Made by a program: the position numbers and the translations under genes
In this document: positions 41,067-45,745 of the stretch, piece by piece
Position numbering within the stretch: the first letter of the stretch is position 1
How the letters are laid out: every line of letters starts with the position of its first letter
The notes under the pieces: generated by a model
Database searches by the model: none
What the model saw: the letters and a program-made list of their open reading frames with translations, nothing else
What the model was told of the DNA's origin: nothing
Sequence record: MH051913
Reading direction: 5' to 3' (one strand)
Length of the DNA stretch: 64,000 nucleotides
Origin: Enterobacteria phage vB_EcoM_IME281

Positions 41067-41103
41067 GTTTACATCCCTCAGAGGACAGGGTATAATGTCC
41101 TCA
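41067..41103 (+). promoter_or_regulatory. PeSL-like early promoter (GTTTAC -35, TATAAT inside gaggaca…tgtcctc stem)
   Basis: gtttacatccctcagaggacagggtataatgtcctc. Confidence 0.55.
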
Positions 41104-41138: not shown

Positions 41139-41732
41139 ATGAACACTTTAAAGAAAATCGTTGAATTCATCCGTTCTAAACTGGGTACTGCAATGGCTCA
41201 GAACCTGTCAATCGAAGACCAATACACCAAAGCTGCTTCTACCCTGATTGATAAGATTACTGAACTCCAGACTGCTCATGTTAAGTCCGTGAATGAAGAA
41301 AAACGTATTCGTGCGTTGGCTAATGAAAAAGACCAGCTTGCTGCTTCTAAAGAACGTGAAATTCGTAAACTGATTGCCGAAGGCGCTGATGTCCAGGTAC
41401 ATGCTAAACTTGGCCTCCTTTATCGTCGTACAGCTACTCAGCTTCGTAAGAAAGCCGATGATTATATCGAAATGCGTAATGAAATTAAACTGAAGGTCAA
41501 GGAACTTGATGACTCTCGTCAAGAACTGGCTGTTAAGCTCGAGTACATCCGTGAAACTCGTAATATGGCTGCCCTTGGTATTGCTACTGCCGATGATGTT
41601 GTTGAAATCGCTGCACTGACTAAGATTGATATTGAAGATACCCTGCTGCGTGTAGAAACGTTTAAAGGCCCACAAGTTGGAATGGATACGACTTCTGCCG
41701 ATATCGACGACTACATTAATTCACTTAAGTAA
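41139..41732 (+). CDS. Coiled-coil protein (possible PspA/IM30-like fold; weak)
   Basis: 197 aa, almost entirely heptad-like helical sequence. Confidence 0.45.
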
Positions 41733-41780: not shown

Positions 41781-42323
41781 ATGAGTTTATATGACGACCT
41801 GATATCAAATATTGATTGGTTTAAGCATAGTGGTCTTTCACATGAAACTAATTCAGTTCTTTATAGAATTCGCCAAGACTTAGGTTATTCCAATGATTTC
41901 TTAAGTCGAACAAATAGCCGTGGATACACTAGCAAATTACCTTTTATCTTTGCTTTAGCTGAGGACCTTTCTTTTGCAGAAGCTTTAGAAATTATTGACT
42001 TAAATCTGGGTATTCAACGAGTGGAATTCGCTGGATTATGCTATTCAGTATACGCTTTAAATGAACCGAGTGATTGTAAACAGCTTGTTGATGCTGACGA
42101 TGATTACCATTTAGTATGCTATTTGATGTTAGAAAATGGTGACCACTTTGGTATGGTCGACCGCCGCCCGAGTTATTCGGATATTAAAAATTACGATAAA
42201 GATGAGCTTATTATTTTGGCTAATGAGTATACATCAGAGATTCGAAAACAACAACGGAAGCTTAATCGTTTTATTGCTGAATGTCGCGAATACGCTAAAG
42301 AGGTTCAAAATGGAGCGGCCTAG
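41781..42323 (+). CDS. Hypothetical protein (C-terminal …NRFIAECRE motif)
   Basis: 180 aa ORF. Confidence 0.5.
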   Translation: MSLYDDLISNIDWFKHSGLSHETNSVLYRIRQDLGYSNDFLSRTNSRGYTSKLPFIFALAEDLSFAEALEIIDLNLGIQRVEFAGLCYSVYALNEPSDCKQLVDADDDYHLVCYLMLENGDHFGMVDRRPSYSDIKNYDKDELIILANEYTSEIRKQQRKLNRFIAECREYAKEVQNGAA

Positions 42324-42663
42324 TCTTTCATCACATGTTTATCAATTGACTGAATATGATATTGGTGCCAATTTATTATTAGGGATTGTTACAGCCATGC
42401 TTGGTGGCTTAATTGGCCTGGTAATGACCGTGGTTATGGCTGTAATCGAAGGAGTCACACCTATTGAGATGGGGTTCTATATGATAATCGCTCCGGCAGT
42501 TGTGGCCTATTTTATCCCTGTTGTGTATGATATTTGCCATACAAACGCTTTGAATGCTCCAATCCGTAAGAGATATGCTTTAGAGATGGCTAATTATAAT
42601 GAGTATGTAAATCAAACTAAACGTAATGACCTTGAAATCTTTATTAAGGAATGTAAATCATGA
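42310..42663 (+). CDS. Membrane protein with C-terminal …FIKECKS motif
   Basis: Start at MERPSLSS with AAAGAGG SD; two hydrophobic helices. Confidence 0.45.
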   Translation: MERPSLSSHVYQLTEYDIGANLLLGIVTAMLGGLIGLVMTVVMAVIEGVTPIEMGFYMIIAPAVVAYFIPVVYDICHTNALNAPIRKRYALEMANYNEYVNQTKRNDLEIFIKECKS

Positions 42664-42950
42664 ATAAAATTGAAATTGAAATCCCAGAACACAACGACGA
42701 GAAATCTGCAGAAAAGGCTATCTATGCTCTTCTGAATAAAGTGAATACCATCGAACATGAATGTGAAGCTATTGCCGATAAGTATGGTATCCAATTCGGT
42801 ACCGGTGATTATGGTTCAGGCCGTACATATTATCCTGTCGGTTATGAATGCTCCCAGTGGTTTAAAGATGAAATTGAAAACAACGGCGGTGAAGTTGAAA
42901 ATGGTGTCGTTACAGTTGGTGCTTGGGTCTCCTCTTCGGCAATGTGCTAA
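42660..42950 (+). CDS. Array member 1: small acidic protein ending …AWVSSSAMC
   Basis: ATGA-coupled start; 96 aa. Confidence 0.55.
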   Translation: MNKIEIEIPEHNDEKSAEKAIYALLNKVNTIEHECEAIADKYGIQFGTGDYGSGRTYYPVGYECSQWFKDEIENNGGEVENGVVTVGAWVSSSAMC

Positions 42951-42959
42951 GGAAACGCT

Positions 42960-43241
42960 ATGATGAATGATTACCGTAAAAATAAAGAGCTGGCTGAAGC
43001 AGTAAATGATATTCATAAAGCTATTCGTCGTGCTGAGGAAATTGCAGACAAATATGAGACTCATTTTAATATATACCCTGCTCGCGGTATGGGCGGTGAC
43101 TATTATTCTCCTGGCGCCCTGAAAGCCGACCTTGCTCACTGGGAAGAATACGGTGAAGCTCAGTACGCTATTGTAAACCAACATGATTACACTACCAGCC
43201 TAGAAAATGGTGGATGGGTATCCTCTTCTTCTGAATGTTAA
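42960..43241 (+). CDS. Array member 2: small acidic protein ending …GWVSSSSEC
   Basis: 93 aa; TAAGGA SD overlapping upstream stop. Confidence 0.55.
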   Translation: MMNDYRKNKELAEAVNDIHKAIRRAEEIADKYETHFNIYPARGMGGDYYSPGALKADLAHWEEYGEAQYAIVNQHDYTTSLENGGWVSSSSEC

Positions 43242-43250
43242 GGAATTATT

Positions 43251-43448
43251 ATGTCTCGTGAACTAGATTGTGCAATCCGTACTGCCGCGGCGGCTATTGA
43301 AAACGTTATCCAGATTTGCAAAGAAGAACGTGAAGAAGCTGATATCTATATCGATGGTCAACGTGACCTGGAACGTCATATCACGCTTTATAACGGTTGT
43401 ATTACTATTAGTGGTACCTCTTGGGTGTCCTCCTCTTACGAATGCTAA
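43251..43448 (+). CDS. Array member 3: small acidic protein ending …SWVSSSYEC
   Basis: 65 aa. Confidence 0.55.
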   Translation: MSRELDCAIRTAAAAIENVIQICKEEREEADIYIDGQRDLERHITLYNGCITISGTSWVSSSYEC

Positions 43449-43457
43449 GGAAATAAA

Positions 43458-43667
43458 ATGACTATTGATGAAATTGAAAAACAAATCCGTGAATTAGTAC
43501 GTAAAGGTCAGTCCGTGGCTGACGAAACAGGTCAGCACTTCCACGCCGGCGGCGAAGAATATATTCCAGCTTCTAGTCCGGAATATGGCGATTACGAATG
43601 GGCCCGTGATGATTACGGTATTCCTGAAGGTGAAGGTTTCTGGTTTAGCTCCTCTATGTCTTGCTAA
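43458..43667 (+). CDS. Array member 4: small acidic protein ending …FWFSSSMSC
   Basis: 69 aa. Confidence 0.55.
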   Translation: MTIDEIEKQIRELVRKGQSVADETGQHFHAGGEEYIPASSPEYGDYEWARDDYGIPEGEGFWFSSSMSC

Positions 43668-43677
43668 GGTGATAAAA

Positions 43678-43902
43678 ATGACTGATATTAATGAATTAGA
43701 AAAAGCGGCACTTGAACTGGCTGCACTGTATAAGAAAGTAAAAGATATGGCTTCTGCTCAGGATTTTGGTGTTGAGCTCGACGATTATGACGGTGAAGTT
43801 CGTCTCGAAGATTGGCTGAATAGTTCTTGTTATGGTGAAGAAGCTGGTCGTACCTTCGTTGCTCGTGCCGATGGTAAAATCTGGTACCCAAGCTCATGCT
43901 AA
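43678..43902 (+). CDS. Array member 5: small acidic protein ending …IWYPSSC
   Basis: Start at MTDINEL (the ORF-track upstream start lies in another gene); 74 aa. Confidence 0.5.
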   Translation: MTDINELEKAALELAALYKKVKDMASAQDFGVELDDYDGEVRLEDWLNSSCYGEEAGRTFVARADGKIWYPSSC

Positions 43903-44123
43903 AATTGAAAAAACGATACATTCGTAAAATAAATGGTCTTCGCGATTATGCCAAAGGTTGGCCACTAAGTATTATTATGGCTGATAGACACCCACGTTAT
44001 AATACTGAGATGACTTATTACAAAAAGTACGATTCATATTGTCGGTCTAAAGCGGGTCGTTTAGATGGTTCTTATGAGGACTATTTTGGTAAAAAACCTA
44101 CTCGTGTTTCGTTAGGAAAATAA
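43896..44123 (+). CDS. Small basic hypothetical protein
   Basis: 75 aa ORF. Confidence 0.4.
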   Translation: MLKLKKRYIRKINGLRDYAKGWPLSIIMADRHPRYNTEMTYYKKYDSYCRSKAGRLDGSYEDYFGKKPTRVSLGK

Positions 44124-44153
44124 TTTAACCACATGGATGTGATAGGAGGACTT

Positions 44154-44483
44154 ATGCATAAAGATTCAGTATTCAAATATCTTTTGAAAACAGATAAAGA
44201 ATTCTATATGAATGGGCAAGCTTTCTTGTTCGTTCGTGGTAAACGTGAGATGTTTTACAAATGCGACCTCTCAATGCACCATCATATGTATCACACCCAT
44301 GGCGAGCCTATACTGGGGTTCTCTGGTGACGAAACTAGACGTATAGCTATGTACTACGACCATTTTAAGCTCAATGATTGTGGTGACAACGCTTTGGTCT
44401 GGAATCCATCTTGGCGTCGTTGGGATACGGTAGACAACGATAAATTATTTTTAGAATATTGCAGAAGTGATGTACAGCTCTAA
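44154..44483 (+). CDS. Hypothetical His-rich protein
   Basis: AGGAGG SD; 109 aa. Confidence 0.45.
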   Translation: MHKDSVFKYLLKTDKEFYMNGQAFLFVRGKREMFYKCDLSMHHHMYHTHGEPILGFSGDETRRIAMYYDHFKLNDCGDNALVWNPSWRRWDTVDNDKLFLEYCRSDVQL

Positions 44484-44526
44484 AAATACGTGTTACTATT
44501 ACCCTACACAAACATGAGGAGAACAT

Positions 44527-44766
44527 ATGTGGTATTACGCTCCGATGTCCGATAAGTCTAATGAACCGGTACGCATTACTCGTGCCAAGTTTAAAAAGAT
44601 TTATGGCTTTGCTTATAAGAAGTCTGATTACGGTGTTCGTTTTGAAGATGCTCACTGTATCAATGATCCTTATGCAGAAGAAATCTCTAATGAGATAATT
44701 CCTATCGTTGAGAGTAATTCCAATGATATGTGGGAATTACATAATACTTACGTTGCCGAAATTTAA
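44527..44766 (+). CDS. Hypothetical protein
   Basis: 79 aa; GAGGAG SD. Confidence 0.45.
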   Translation: MWYYAPMSDKSNEPVRITRAKFKKIYGFAYKKSDYGVRFEDAHCINDPYAEEISNEIIPIVESNSNDMWELHNTYVAEI

Positions 44767-44785: not shown

Positions 44786-45745
44786 ATGATGCTAGTTATT
44801 GGTTCTCGTGCACTGCACCACGCAGGTCTGATTGAAAATAAGTATATCGAAAATTCTGATTGGGATTTCATTGCCGACCAAGGCTCATGGAACCACTTTA
44901 AAGCTCGGATGTTCGGCGCCCATGTACACGTTGACAATCCTGATGTTCAGGCTTTCAAATGTATGCATAATGGTAAAGAAACCTATTTCGAAGCTTATAT
45001 CGTCCGTGCCCTGACTAATGTACGAGAAATTACCGGTGAGCTCCAAGATGAAGACTACACCTCAAGCTATCGTCTCCTGAAATATGCTGAAAATCATATT
45101 AAAAAGGACCGTCTTACAGGTTTCTATTGGGCGACGCCTGATATCTGTCTGGCTATCAAAACCTCTCATCGTTTCCTGAAGAATAATCCGTTCTTCTTGA
45201 AAACTATGTCCCACATCAAATACCTTCGTAATAAAGGTATCACCCTGAATGAAGAACTCCGGGAAATTATGCTGCAACGTCAAAAAGAAACGTTGAGCTA
45301 TTCCCATCCTAAATTGGATGTAAACAAATCATCGTTCTTTAATGATACCATTTATACGCTAGACCATGACTCCATCCATGAAGCAGTAGCATTGGCAGGG
45401 CGTCCTGCATATACCTTTTATATGAAGGAAGGTTCTGAAGTCATGACCTCTCGTGAGAAGTTCGAGGCTTTGCCTGAAGCTATTAAATTGGCTGGTGTGT
45501 ATGAAGAAACTTGTGTCCTGGCACTAGAACGTTCACAGGTTCCTAATGACTTCAATATTTCACCATCATTAAGTTTCTATATGGCTCTTGAGAAAGTGTG
45601 TACCTCAATCACTTCAGGTTGGTTCCGTGAGTACGCCTGGGAAAACTACCAAGCTGTGGTTAATATGTACAAGACTTTAGGTGAAAACGACTACATCAAA
45701 CGATTCCAAGACAACCATCATTTAATTCGTCCTTTCGAAAAATAA
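44786..45745 (+). CDS. Hypothetical protein, possible nucleotidyltransferase fold
   Basis: 319 aa; N-terminal LVIGSRALHHAG…SDWDF resembles a G[SG]…D-x-D motif with a long spacer. Confidence 0.4.
   Translation: MMLVIGSRALHHAGLIENKYIENSDWDFIADQGSWNHFKARMFGAHVHVDNPDVQAFKCMHNGKETYFEAYIVRALTNVREITGELQDEDYTSSYRLLKYAENHIKKDRLTGFYWATPDICLAIKTSHRFLKNNPFFLKTMSHIKYLRNKGITLNEELREIMLQRQKETLSYSHPKLDVNKSSFFNDTIYTLDHDSIHEAVALAGRPAYTFYMKEGSEVMTSREKFEALPEAIKLAGVYEETCVLALERSQVPNDFNISPSLSFYMALEKVCTSITSGWFREYAWENYQAVVNMYKTLGENDYIKRFQDNHHLIRPFEK

What the first reader, a model, noticed from the sequence alone, without database searches (positions are those of the whole stretch)
42660..43902. Tandem array of five small acidic paralogs with a conserved C-terminal W-x-S-S-S-x-Cys end
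Five consecutive plus-strand genes of 65-96 aa, separated by only 9-10 nt, end in …AWVSSSAMC, …GWVSSSSEC, …SWVSSSYEC, …FWFSSSMSC and …IWYPSSC. Each is strongly acidic and otherwise divergent, and two carry the terminal Cys as their only cysteine. The pattern suggests a diversifying effector family with a conserved C-terminal tag (modification site, degron, metal or partner-binding site). Small acidic tandemly amplified early phage proteins are typical of DNA-mimic or anti-defence factors. I cannot tie this motif to any family I know. Each stop is followed by the same TAAGGA(A) SD, so the array looks generated by cassette duplication.
Basis: seen in the sequence. Interest (0 to 1): 0.78.

Follow-up and report, generated by a model that had tools for sequence, protein, structure and literature searches.

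The report
Tagged small proteins with partner enzyme
Five adjacent small acidic phage genes all end in the same eight-residue tail (Trp-x-Ser-Ser-Ser-x-x-Cys), and such tail-bearing genes are almost always followed by a nucleotidyltransferase-like gene in hundreds of large phages, pointing to an undescribed two-part system of unknown function.

Summary
Five translationally coupled plus-strand genes (42660-43902) of a JS98-like T4-type phage (Dhakavirus) end in W-x-S-S-S-x-x-C.

The tail is selected as peptide, not as DNA. All six Ser codons and both Cys codons are used across 141 distinct homologous tails, and orthologs have dN/dS of 0.07-0.25.

The family is large: 422 clusters at 50% identity, about 92% ending exactly in the 8-residue tail. 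A confident AlphaFold model (pLDDT 91) has no PDB fold match, and there is no functional annotation.

About 0.9 kb downstream (44786-45745) lies a 319-aa DUF7277+DUF7275 protein.
- It has invariant G-S...D-x-D...E residues.
- Of 80 loci fetched with the partner, 79 carry tail-bearing ORFs, nearly all upstream on the same strand.
- Of 24 informative loci fetched through the tail alone, 24 carry the partner.
- The tail also sits on bodies that are not detectably homologous, so it behaves as a portable tag.

Best reading, inferred and not shown: the tail is the docking or acceptor site through which the enzyme modifies or engages a set of early small proteins. There is no evidence for DNA mimicry. 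I found nothing published on it.

The parts
42660..42950 (+). Small protein 1 (96 aa, GDYGSGRTYYP loop, tail AWVSSSAMC at 42924-42947)
   Evidence: ORF; phrog_899 E 1.4e-23; AF2 pLDDT 91.2; dN/dS 0.15
42960..43241 (+). Small protein 2 (93 aa, ARGMGGDYYSP loop, tail GWVSSSSEC at 43215-43238; the terminal Cys is its only Cys)
   Evidence: ORF; phrog_899 E 5.5e-21; homologs in 290 phage records; dN/dS 0.25
43251..43448 (+). Small protein 3 (65 aa, tail SWVSSSYEC at 43422-43445); body not detectably related to the others
   Evidence: phrog_4882 E 1e-36; hhalign against the other types aligns only the last 10 residues; dN/dS 0.09
43458..43667 (+). Small protein 4 (69 aa, tail FWFSSSMSC at 43641-43664; the terminal Cys is its only Cys)
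   Evidence: phrog_899 E 1.9e-12; dN/dS 0.08; not annotated in the JS98 record
43678..43902 (+). Small protein 5 (74 aa) with two motif copies: internal DWLNSSC (43813-43830) and terminal IWYPSSC (43882-43899)
   Evidence: phrog_899 E 6.4e-10; same double-motif type in Marfavirus and the rV5-like phage tuntematon; dN/dS 0.07
44786..45745 (+). Partner: 319-aa DUF7277 (N-terminal, nucleotidyltransferase-like) + DUF7275 (C-terminal helical domain), phrog_2141
41068..41096 (+). Candidate early (sigma-70-like) promoter, TTTACA-17-TATAAT, upstream of the e.6 homolog. It may drive the gene block that contains the array and the partner.
   Evidence: 11/12 consensus match. No terminator-like site on the + strand between it and the partner. 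No late-promoter TATAAATA on the + strand between 39574 and 48002. A consensus match only; function is inferred.

Best explanation
Shown: the five genes are the small-protein component of a conserved two-part phage module.

Component 1 is one to five small (about 60-110 aa) acidic proteins. Their universal feature is the C-terminal tail G-x-W-x-[S/A/P]-S-S-x-x-C, usually the very end of the protein. Most also share an N-terminal helix and a Y-G-(M/S)-G-G-x-Y hairpin.

Component 2 is a roughly 300-330 aa protein encoded shortly downstream on the same strand. It has an N-terminal Pol-beta-type nucleotidyltransferase-like domain (G-S ... D-x-D ... E) and a very highly conserved helical domain (DUF7275).

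Inferred: the tail is a portable recognition and acceptor tag. After early co-expression, the nucleotidyltransferase-like partner binds the exposed tail and covalently modifies a Ser hydroxyl, or the Cys thiol. The modification would be nucleotidylylation, or phosphoryl transfer as MenT-type enzymes can also do. One enzyme would thereby switch on, switch off or load a set of divergent client proteins. Each client body would have its own, still unknown, host or phage target.

The array therefore looks like 'several clients, one tag, one enzyme', not a set of free-standing DNA mimics.
For: Linkage:
- 80 IMG/VR loci were fetched with the partner as bait. 68 have at least one small-family ORF by HMM, and 11 more have a tail-bearing ORF by pattern.
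- 198 of 202 strict-tail ORFs lie upstream on the same strand, among 9,529 ORFs.
- Loci fetched through a DNA pattern for the tail alone: all 24 with about 900 nt or more of downstream DNA contain the partner.
- Only these two families are shared across T4-like, rV5-like, jumbo, Ackermann-like, Acinetobacter and Aeromonas phage loci.
- T4's syntenic e.6-e.2 region lacks both.

Tag behaviour:
- W, the two Ser and the Cys are invariant in the 166 canonical tails, which make up 166 of 180 family representatives.
- Selection acts on the peptide.
- The tail occurs on bodies that are not detectably homologous. hhalign aligns only the tail for paralog 3. With tails removed, 74 of 202 tail-bearing ORFs, in 13 body clusters, fail a body-only HMM.
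- 12 of 180 members carry extra internal W-x-S-S-x-C copies, including paralog 5.
- Model confidence falls from about 96 to 79 in the last ten residues.

Enzyme:
- Invariant G6-S7, D25-x-D27 and E69.
- AF2 pLDDT 92.4.
- Some GenBank annotators already call it a nucleotidyltransferase.

Established knowledge, not tested here: Pol-beta NTases nucleotidylylate protein hydroxyls in GlnE, GlnD-PII, DrrA and MntA-HepT.
Against: - No modification or physical interaction has been shown or modelled. I had no multimer prediction available.
- Known protein-modifying NTases target Tyr, or Ser/Thr only rarely.
- About 4% of family members have one residue after the Cys, so a free Cys carboxylate is not strictly required.
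- Three unrelated small genes separate the array from the partner in this window.
- Distant DUF7275 homologs in actinophages and KVP40-like vibriophages have no obvious tail-bearing neighbour. The enzyme can therefore exist without these clients.
- The biological output (target, benefit to the phage) is unknown.
Confidence: 0.42

Rival explanations
1. Toxin-antitoxin-like or regulatory pairing. The partner would be a MenT/AbiEii-like nucleotidyltransferase that acts on tRNA or another RNA 3' end. The upstream small proteins would be its inhibitors or specificity subunits, with the conserved tail plugging or docking at the active site without being a true substrate.
For: - MenT1 is neutralised by a 68-aa protein encoded immediately upstream, which blocks the active site (PMC7450476, PMC10435456).
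- The gene order here is the same, small genes upstream of the NTase.
- In T4-like phages the module sits next to the tRNA gene region. RNA ligase or polynucleotide kinase genes flank it in RSP15, Limpid and Kaldavass.
Against: - Up to five divergent, separately conserved small proteins per enzyme is not the pattern of an antitoxin, and some carry several tail copies.
- Unrelated bodies share only the tail.
- The small proteins are confidently folded, whereas MenA1 is predicted to be disordered; the AF2 model here has pLDDT 91.
- tRNA genes are near the module in only 6 of 46 non-Dhakavirus loci.
- The Pfam DUF1814 model does not hit the partner.
Confidence: 0.25
2. The small proteins would be stand-alone early effectors, such as DNA mimics or anti-defence factors. 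The C-terminal tail would be a degron, a metal or partner-binding site, or a site modified by a host enzyme. Linkage to the DUF7275 gene would reflect shared regulation or a shared host target, not direct interaction.
For: - Acidic (pI 4.3-4.9).
- Early-type location, with no late promoter nearby.
- They sit in a hyperplastic region between the tRNA genes and gene e, which differs between T4 and JS98-like phages.
- 91 of 180 family members have the terminal Cys as their only Cys, which would fit a thiol-based function.
Against: - Linkage with the partner is near-obligatory in both directions, across unrelated phage lineages in which nothing else is shared. That is hard to explain without functional dependence.
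- No PADLOC, Pfam or NCBIfam hit.
- Charge density (-0.08 to -0.14 per residue) is only at about the window's most acidic tenth.
Confidence: 0.12
3. RiPP-like maturation. The S-S-S-x-x-C tail, and the internal W-x-S-S-x-C copies, would be a core peptide. The partner would activate a Ser by nucleotidylylation or phosphorylation. Elimination to dehydroalanine and attack by the Cys thiol would then give a lanthionine-type ring, or a Trp/Cys crosslink, on a protein scaffold.
For: - The Ser-x(2-4)-Cys spacing and the repeated motif copies resemble lanthipeptide cores. That comparison rests on my own knowledge.
- The tag sits at the extreme C-terminus, with a dedicated enzyme gene downstream.
- Ser activation before elimination is how class II-V lanthipeptide synthetases work (established knowledge).
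Against: - No LanB/C/M/KC-, YcaO- or radical-SAM-like gene is conserved near the module. Only the two families recur, and the partner matches no such Pfam family.
- The tail is part of a confidently folded 65-100 aa domain, not a leader-core peptide.
- No lyase or cyclase domain can be recognised.
Confidence: 0.07
4. By-product of a nucleotide-level signal. The conserved tail would reflect a conserved stop/Shine-Dalgarno junction, or an RNA hairpin in which the UCCUC Ser codons pair with the downstream AAGGA.
For: - In three of the four junctions the minimum-energy fold pairs UCCU with AGGA.
- TAAGGA follows four of the five stops.
Against: - Junction folds are no more stable than shuffled sequences (z +0.35 to +1.7).
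- Across 141 distinct tails, the invariant Ser positions use AGY 38 times against TCN 103 and 95 times. Cys uses TGC 92 and TGT 49. Stops are TAA, TGA and TAG, and the downstream sequence varies.
- Internal motif copies lie far from any junction.
- No Rfam family matches.
Confidence: 0.01

Closest known systems
MenT/AbiEii (DUF1814) nucleotidyltransferase toxins with a small upstream antitoxin (e.g. MenA1-MenT1 of M. tuberculosis)
   Same: - G-[ST] and D-x-D residues.
- A small protein is encoded immediately upstream on the same strand (PMC10435456).
   Different: - No sequence-level membership: the Pfam DUF1814 model does not hit.
- The C-terminal domain is the separate, far more conserved DUF7275.
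- Found in phage genomes and phage-like contigs only.
- One to five folded small proteins share an invariant C-terminal W-x-S-S-S-x-x-C tail, which has no counterpart in MenA antitoxins.
- tRNA activity is untested.
Protein-modifying Pol-beta nucleotidyltransferases: MntA-HepT (type VII toxin-antitoxin), GlnD-PII, GlnE-glutamine synthetase, DrrA-Rab1
   Same: An NTase-fold enzyme paired with a specific protein client that it nucleotidylylates on a side-chain hydroxyl. In MntA-HepT the two genes are adjacent.
   Different: - Those acceptors are Tyr in a folded loop. Here the candidate acceptor is a Ser/Cys tail at the C-terminus.
- The clients here are many, divergent and non-HEPN.
- The modification itself is not demonstrated.
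Acidic phage DNA mimics and anti-restriction proteins (Ocr, ArdA, Arn)
   Same: Small, acidic, early phage proteins in variable genome regions.
   Different: - Lower charge density.
- A conserved C-terminal tag and an obligatory enzyme partner, which DNA mimics do not have.
C-terminal tag systems (CaaX prenylation, ThiS/MoaD C-terminal adenylation, RiPP cores)
   Same: A short invariant C-terminal motif on otherwise divergent proteins, read by one dedicated enzyme.
   Different: - Different motif, and different enzyme fold (Pol-beta NTase-like rather than prenyltransferase, E1 or Lan enzymes).
- No beta-grasp fold or Gly-Gly end.
- The Cys is the last residue, not at position -4.

Membership tests
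PHROG phrog_899 / phrog_4882 (phage proteins of unknown function) | Significant match to the family HMM | tested here: met
   Paralogs 1, 2, 4 and 5 match phrog_899 (E 1e-23 to 6e-10). Paralog 3 matches phrog_4882 (E 1e-36).
W-x-S-S-S-x-x-C small-protein family (defined here) | C-terminal G-x-W-x-[SAP]-S-S-x-x-C, with Cys as the last residue | tested here: met
   Paralogs 1-4 have the canonical 8-residue tail. Paralog 5 has the short form W-Y-P-S-S-C plus an internal W-L-N-S-S-C. 166 of 180 family representatives are canonical.
W-x-S-S-S-x-x-C small-protein family (defined here) | A DUF7277+DUF7275 gene downstream on the same strand, within a few kb | tested here: met
   The partner is at 44786-45745, 884 nt after the last small gene. 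The general rule holds in 79/80 and 24/24 loci.
W-x-S-S-S-x-x-C small-protein family (defined here) | Shared body: N-terminal helix plus a Y-G-x-G-G-x-Y hairpin | tested here: inconclusive
   Present in paralogs 1, 2 and 4. Absent or undetectable in 3 and 5: hhalign aligns only the tail for 3, and the body-only HMM misses both the type-3 and type-5 bodies. 134 of 180 family members have the hairpin motif.
Pol-beta superfamily nucleotidyltransferase (partner gene) | h-G-[GS] x(9-13) D-h-[DE]-h motif plus a third acidic residue on a later strand | tested here: met
   [not shown]
DUF1814 / MenT / AbiEii toxins (partner gene) | Match to the DUF1814 profile, and the family-specific C-terminal motifs III and IV | tested here: not met
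   [not shown]
DUF1814 / MenT / AbiEii toxins (partner gene) | Growth toxicity and nucleotide addition to tRNA 3' ends | not testable with these tools
   This needs expression and tRNA assays. The neighbourhood gives weak support at most: tRNA genes lie within 6 kb in 6 of 46 non-Dhakavirus loci.
DNA-mimic / anti-restriction proteins | Structure that imitates the charge pattern of B-DNA, or similarity to a known mimic | tested here: not met
   [not shown]
Lanthipeptide / RiPP precursor | A leader-core peptide next to a recognised maturation enzyme (LanB/C/M/KC/L, YcaO, radical SAM) | tested here: not met
   Only the small family and the DUF7275 partner recur across loci. The partner has no such Pfam domain. 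The small protein is a compact folded domain.
Ubiquitin-like / sulfur-carrier proteins (ThiS, MoaD) | Beta-grasp fold with a C-terminal Gly-Gly | tested here: not met
   [not shown]

The most novel reading that the evidence does not exclude
Large phages of Gram-negative bacteria would carry a previously unrecognised tag-directed protein modification system. A dedicated Pol-beta-fold enzyme (DUF7277-DUF7275) would read a portable C-terminal W-x-S-S-S-x-x-C tag and covalently nucleotidylylate it, or otherwise activate or crosslink its Ser/Cys residues. The tag sits on a family of small early proteins whose divergent bodies would address different host or phage targets.
Probability: 0.35. Interest if true: 0.85.

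Novelty: new variant of a known kind. Interest (0 to 1): 0.72.

Why it matters
Both gene families are common. The partner is in 732 of 50,697 deposited phage genomes, including therapeutic-type T4-like, rV5-like, Acinetobacter, Klebsiella and jumbo phages, and in more than 2,000 clusters at 90% identity. The small family has 422 clusters at 50% identity. Both are annotated only as hypothetical or DUF.

T4 lacks both genes in the syntenic e.6-e.2 region, the only part of its genome I checked. That may help explain why the module has had no genetic study.

Pairing the two families turns two anonymous ones into a concrete hypothesis that can be tested cheaply: one enzyme, one eight-residue tag, several clients. 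If the tag is covalently modified, that would be a new post-translational chemistry in phage early infection and a potentially useful orthogonal tagging system. If the pairing is toxin-antitoxin-like, it would be a phage-borne relative of the MenT tRNA toxins.

Tried and rejected
1. Nucleotide-junction or RNA-hairpin origin of the motif. Rejected: codon diversity, junction folds no better than shuffles, no Rfam hit.
2. Recent cassette duplication. Rejected: no DNA repeats, and each paralog type has orthologs in other genera.
4. Pfam, NCBIfam and PADLOC on the small proteins and the partner gave nothing beyond the two DUFs.
5. A general tRNA link. Rejected as a rule: 6 of 46 non-Dhakavirus loci.
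6. A third conserved component. Clustering all ORFs of the 80 loci found none. The next-best clusters are T4-lineage synteny (e.6, nudE, e, denV) or antisense artefacts. A NinI-like phosphatase recurs, but only in two lineages.
7. The search for related loci with the small-family alignment failed because it has no sufficiently conserved 7-10 column stretch. I replaced it with a DNA-pattern scan for the tail.
8. P0051, a 1,446-aa hit in the HMMER search, is an unrelated Ig-repeat protein that matches 'GSGRTYQW' by chance.
9. Literature searches for DUF7275, DUF7277, the PHROG ids, RB69 ORF names, phage-encoded NTases, MenT-like proteins and C-terminal cysteine found no description of this module. 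The library lacks most papers from subscription journals, so this is not proof of absence.
Full report
**What is there**

The window is a JS98-like T4-type phage (genus Dhakavirus). The 2.6 kb around the finding is 97.6% identical to Escherichia phage AnYang and about 90% identical to JS98.

The five ORFs exist as described:
- 42660-42950: 96 aa, ...AWVSSSAMC
- 42960-43241: 93 aa, ...GWVSSSSEC
- 43251-43448: 65 aa, ...SWVSSSYEC
- 43458-43667: 69 aa, ...FWFSSSMSC
- 43678-43902: 74 aa, ...IWYPSSC

They are 9, 9, 9 and 10 nt apart. pI is 4.3-4.9. Paralogs 2 and 4 have the terminal Cys as their only Cys. No other ORF of 30 aa or more in any frame of the 64 kb window ends in such a tail.

- The TAAGGAA Shine-Dalgarno sequence follows stops 1-3. 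Stop 4 has TAAGGTGA. Stop 5 is overlapped by the next gene's ATG.
- Paralog 5 carries a second, internal motif copy (DWLNSSC).
- There is no DNA-level repeat that would indicate recent cassette duplication.

The array lies in the variable region between the tRNA genes/e.8/e.6 and e.2/nudE/e. It corresponds to JS98 orf129-126, and paralog 4 is unannotated in that record. In the same position T4 has e.5, e.4 and e.3, and no homolog of the array.

**Are they real genes, and is the motif a peptide signal?**

Among Dhakavirus orthologs, dN/dS is 0.15, 0.25, 0.09, 0.08 and 0.07 for paralogs 1-5, against 0.06 for the downstream enzyme gene. That is purifying selection, not diversifying selection.

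I collected 141 distinct nucleotide versions of the canonical tail from related loci:
- The two invariant Ser positions use TCN 103 and 95 times and AGY 38 and 38 times.
- Cys uses TGC 92 times and TGT 49 times.
- All three stop codons occur.
- The sequence after the stop varies.

Moving between TCN and AGY needs two nucleotide changes, so the constraint is on the amino acid. The junction RNAs fold no better than shuffled controls (z +0.35 to +1.7), and no Rfam family matches. The by-product-of-a-junction explanation is therefore rejected.

**How big is the family?**

PHROGs places paralogs 1, 2, 4 and 5 in phrog_899 and paralog 3 in phrog_4882, both of unknown function. Pfam, NCBIfam and PADLOC give nothing.

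An exhaustive HMMER search of 1.84 billion representatives found 422 clusters at E of 1e-3 or better. Nearly all are 70-110 aa, and the match runs to their last residue.

Of 180 representatives:
- 166 end in W-x-[S/A/P]-S-S-x-x-C with Cys last. In that canonical set, W, both Ser and Cys are invariant by definition of the pattern, and position -5 is S in 123, A in 21 and P in 12.
- 8 have one extra residue after the Cys.
- 91 have the terminal Cys as their only Cys.
- 134 have a Y-G-(M/S)-G-G-like hairpin.
- 12 carry extra internal W-x-S-S-x-C copies, for example QWNSSGCEWESSGC...GWNSSSAHC.

**The partner gene: the main new result**

While reading distant homolog loci, I found that the small genes are always followed by a protein of about 300-330 aa homologous to window 44786-45745. 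This held in:
- Klebsiella phage Marfa
- the 366 kb Erwinia phage Kaldavass
- Ralstonia phage RSP15
- Acinetobacter phage Melin
- the rV5-like phage tuntematon

That protein is Pfam DUF7277 plus DUF7275, phrog_2141.

I tested the link in both directions.

Partner as bait: 80 IMG/VR loci with 6 kb flanks.
- 68 contain at least one small-family ORF by HMM.
- 11 of the remaining 12 contain a tail-bearing ORF by pattern.
- The single exception (L029) has a block of seven tRNA genes in that position.
- Of 202 strict-tail ORFs, 198 are upstream on the same strand, among 9,529 ORFs in all.

Tail as bait: a DNA pattern for W-x-S-S-S-x-x-C-stop returned 120 loci.
- 32 contain a genuine family member.
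- All 24 with about 900 nt or more of DNA downstream contain the partner.
- The 8 without it have less than 900 nt downstream.

Clustering all ORFs of the 80 loci shows that only these two families are shared across lineages. T4's syntenic region lacks both. Distant DUF7275 homologs in actinophages and KVP40-like vibriophages have no obvious tail-bearing neighbour. The pairing therefore characterises the large clade found in phages of Gram-negative hosts, not every DUF7275 protein.

**What the partner looks like**

In an alignment of 44 diverse homologs, 57 columns are invariant. They include:
- G6-S7, D25-x-D27 and E69
- K125, H128, R165, E168, Y172-x-H174-P175
- D193-H194-D195-x-x-H198
- E240-E241, E248-R249
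- the stretch K-V-C-T-S-I-T-S-G-W-F-R-E

The AF2 model is confident (pLDDT 92.4). It places G-S at the beta1/alpha1 junction, D-x-D on beta2 and E69 on beta5, which is the classical Pol-beta nucleotidyltransferase arrangement.

- three putative NTases
- two poly(A) polymerases

The scores are moderate, and Pfam's DUF1814 model does not hit. I therefore call the partner nucleotidyltransferase-like and closest in fold to MenT toxins, but not a member of DUF1814. The partner occurs in 732 of 50,697 phage records and in more than 2,000 clusters at 90% identity. A few annotators already label it 'nucleotidyltransferase'.

**The tail behaves as a portable tag**

In a profile-profile comparison, paralog 3 (the phrog_4882 type) aligns with the other types only over the last ten residues.

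With tails removed, 128 of 202 tail-bearing ORFs next to partner genes still match a phrog_899-type body HMM. The other 74, in 13 body clusters that include the paralog-3 and paralog-5 types, do not.

What is universally conserved is therefore the tail and the partner, not the body. 'Five paralogs' is safe for 1, 2 and 4, plausible for 5, and unproven for 3.

**Expression**

An 11/12 sigma-70-like promoter lies upstream of the e.6 homolog at 41068-41096. No terminator-like site on the + strand follows before the partner. There is no late-promoter TATAAATA on the + strand between 39574 and 48002. Early co-transcription with translational coupling inside the array is likely, but it is inferred.

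**Mechanism**

Shown: a conserved pairing of tail-bearing small proteins with an NTase-like protein.

Inferred: the tail is the site through which the enzyme recognises its clients and probably modifies them on Ser-OH or Cys-SH, by nucleotidylylation or by phosphoryl transfer. This fits the following:
- an invariant short motif on divergent or unrelated bodies
- extra motif copies in some members
- several clients per enzyme
- an equally invariant enzyme
- the known ability of this fold to nucleotidylylate hydroxyl groups. ANT and Lnu enzymes do so on antibiotics; GlnE, GlnD, DrrA and MntA do so on proteins (established knowledge).

I put this at about 0.4.

The main rival, at about 0.25, is a MenT-MenA1-like arrangement in which the small proteins inhibit or steer an RNA-directed NTase (PMC7450476, PMC10435456). 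The multiplicity of small proteins, their unrelated bodies, the repeated motifs and the lack of a general tRNA linkage argue against it.

It does not explain the linkage and has no structural support (about 0.12). A RiPP-like Ser-activation and thioether route is a more exotic subset (about 0.07).

**Novelty**

I found nothing on these families or on the motif in the searchable literature. Both families exist in databases only as DUF or PHROG entries of unknown function.

The nearest known kinds are NTase toxin plus small antitoxin pairs and NTase plus protein-substrate pairs. I rate this a new variant of a known kind, and it could turn out to be a new tag-directed modification system.

Noticed in passing
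L004 6624-7403; L090 1540-2283; 13 of L007-L086 (e.g. L045, L046, L051, L072): A NinI-like Ser/Thr phosphatase gene lies 1-5 kb from the module in jumbo-phage and rV5-like lineages. This could hint at phospho-Ser chemistry on the S-S-S tail, or it could be lineage synteny.
   Followed up: partly
L029 4615-5567: This is the only partner locus of 80 with no tail-bearing ORF. It has seven tRNA genes exactly where the small genes normally sit, immediately upstream of an intact partner gene.
   Followed up: partly
window 42319-42663 (+): A roughly 114-aa predicted membrane protein whose stop overlaps the first paralog's start codon (ATGA). A similar membrane-protein gene precedes the array in Mosigvirus and Marfavirus. 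I did not test whether it belongs to the module.
   Followed up: no
window 43896-44766 (+): Three small genes sit between the array and the partner: 75, 116 and 79 aa, in phrog_7065, phrog_9796 and phrog_3723, all of unknown function. They are under strong purifying selection (dN/dS 0.02-0.16) but are restricted to the T4-like lineage.
   Followed up: partly
L005 3435-3995 and 5803-6825; L004 1-654; L087 3064-3723: RNA-repair-type genes flank the module, or its distant homolog, in several unrelated phages: a macro-domain phosphatase and RNA ligase in RSP15, polynucleotide kinase in Kaldavass, and RNA ligase in Streptomyces phage Limpid.
   Followed up: no
GenBank records MW679410, OR842557, vB_KpnM-VAC36, OM386655, NC_010105: Likely annotation errors. 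Paralog 2 is called 'tail completion protein'. The partner is called 'prohead assembly scaffold protein' or 'baseplate hub subunit'. JS98 does not annotate paralog 4.
   Followed up: no
L088 5847-8287 (Gordonia phage Cucurbita): A distant DUF7275 homolog (gene 15) lies next to a tRNA cluster that includes tRNA-Trp, tRNA-Tyr and two tRNA-Ser. No tail-bearing small ORF is nearby.
   Followed up: no
window 41139-41732 (+): An e.6 homolog (197 aa, phrog_1203, coiled-coil-like) with the strongest sigma-70-like promoter of the region just upstream, at 41068-41096. It co-occurs with the module in 31 T4-like and Aeromonas-phage loci.
   Followed up: partly
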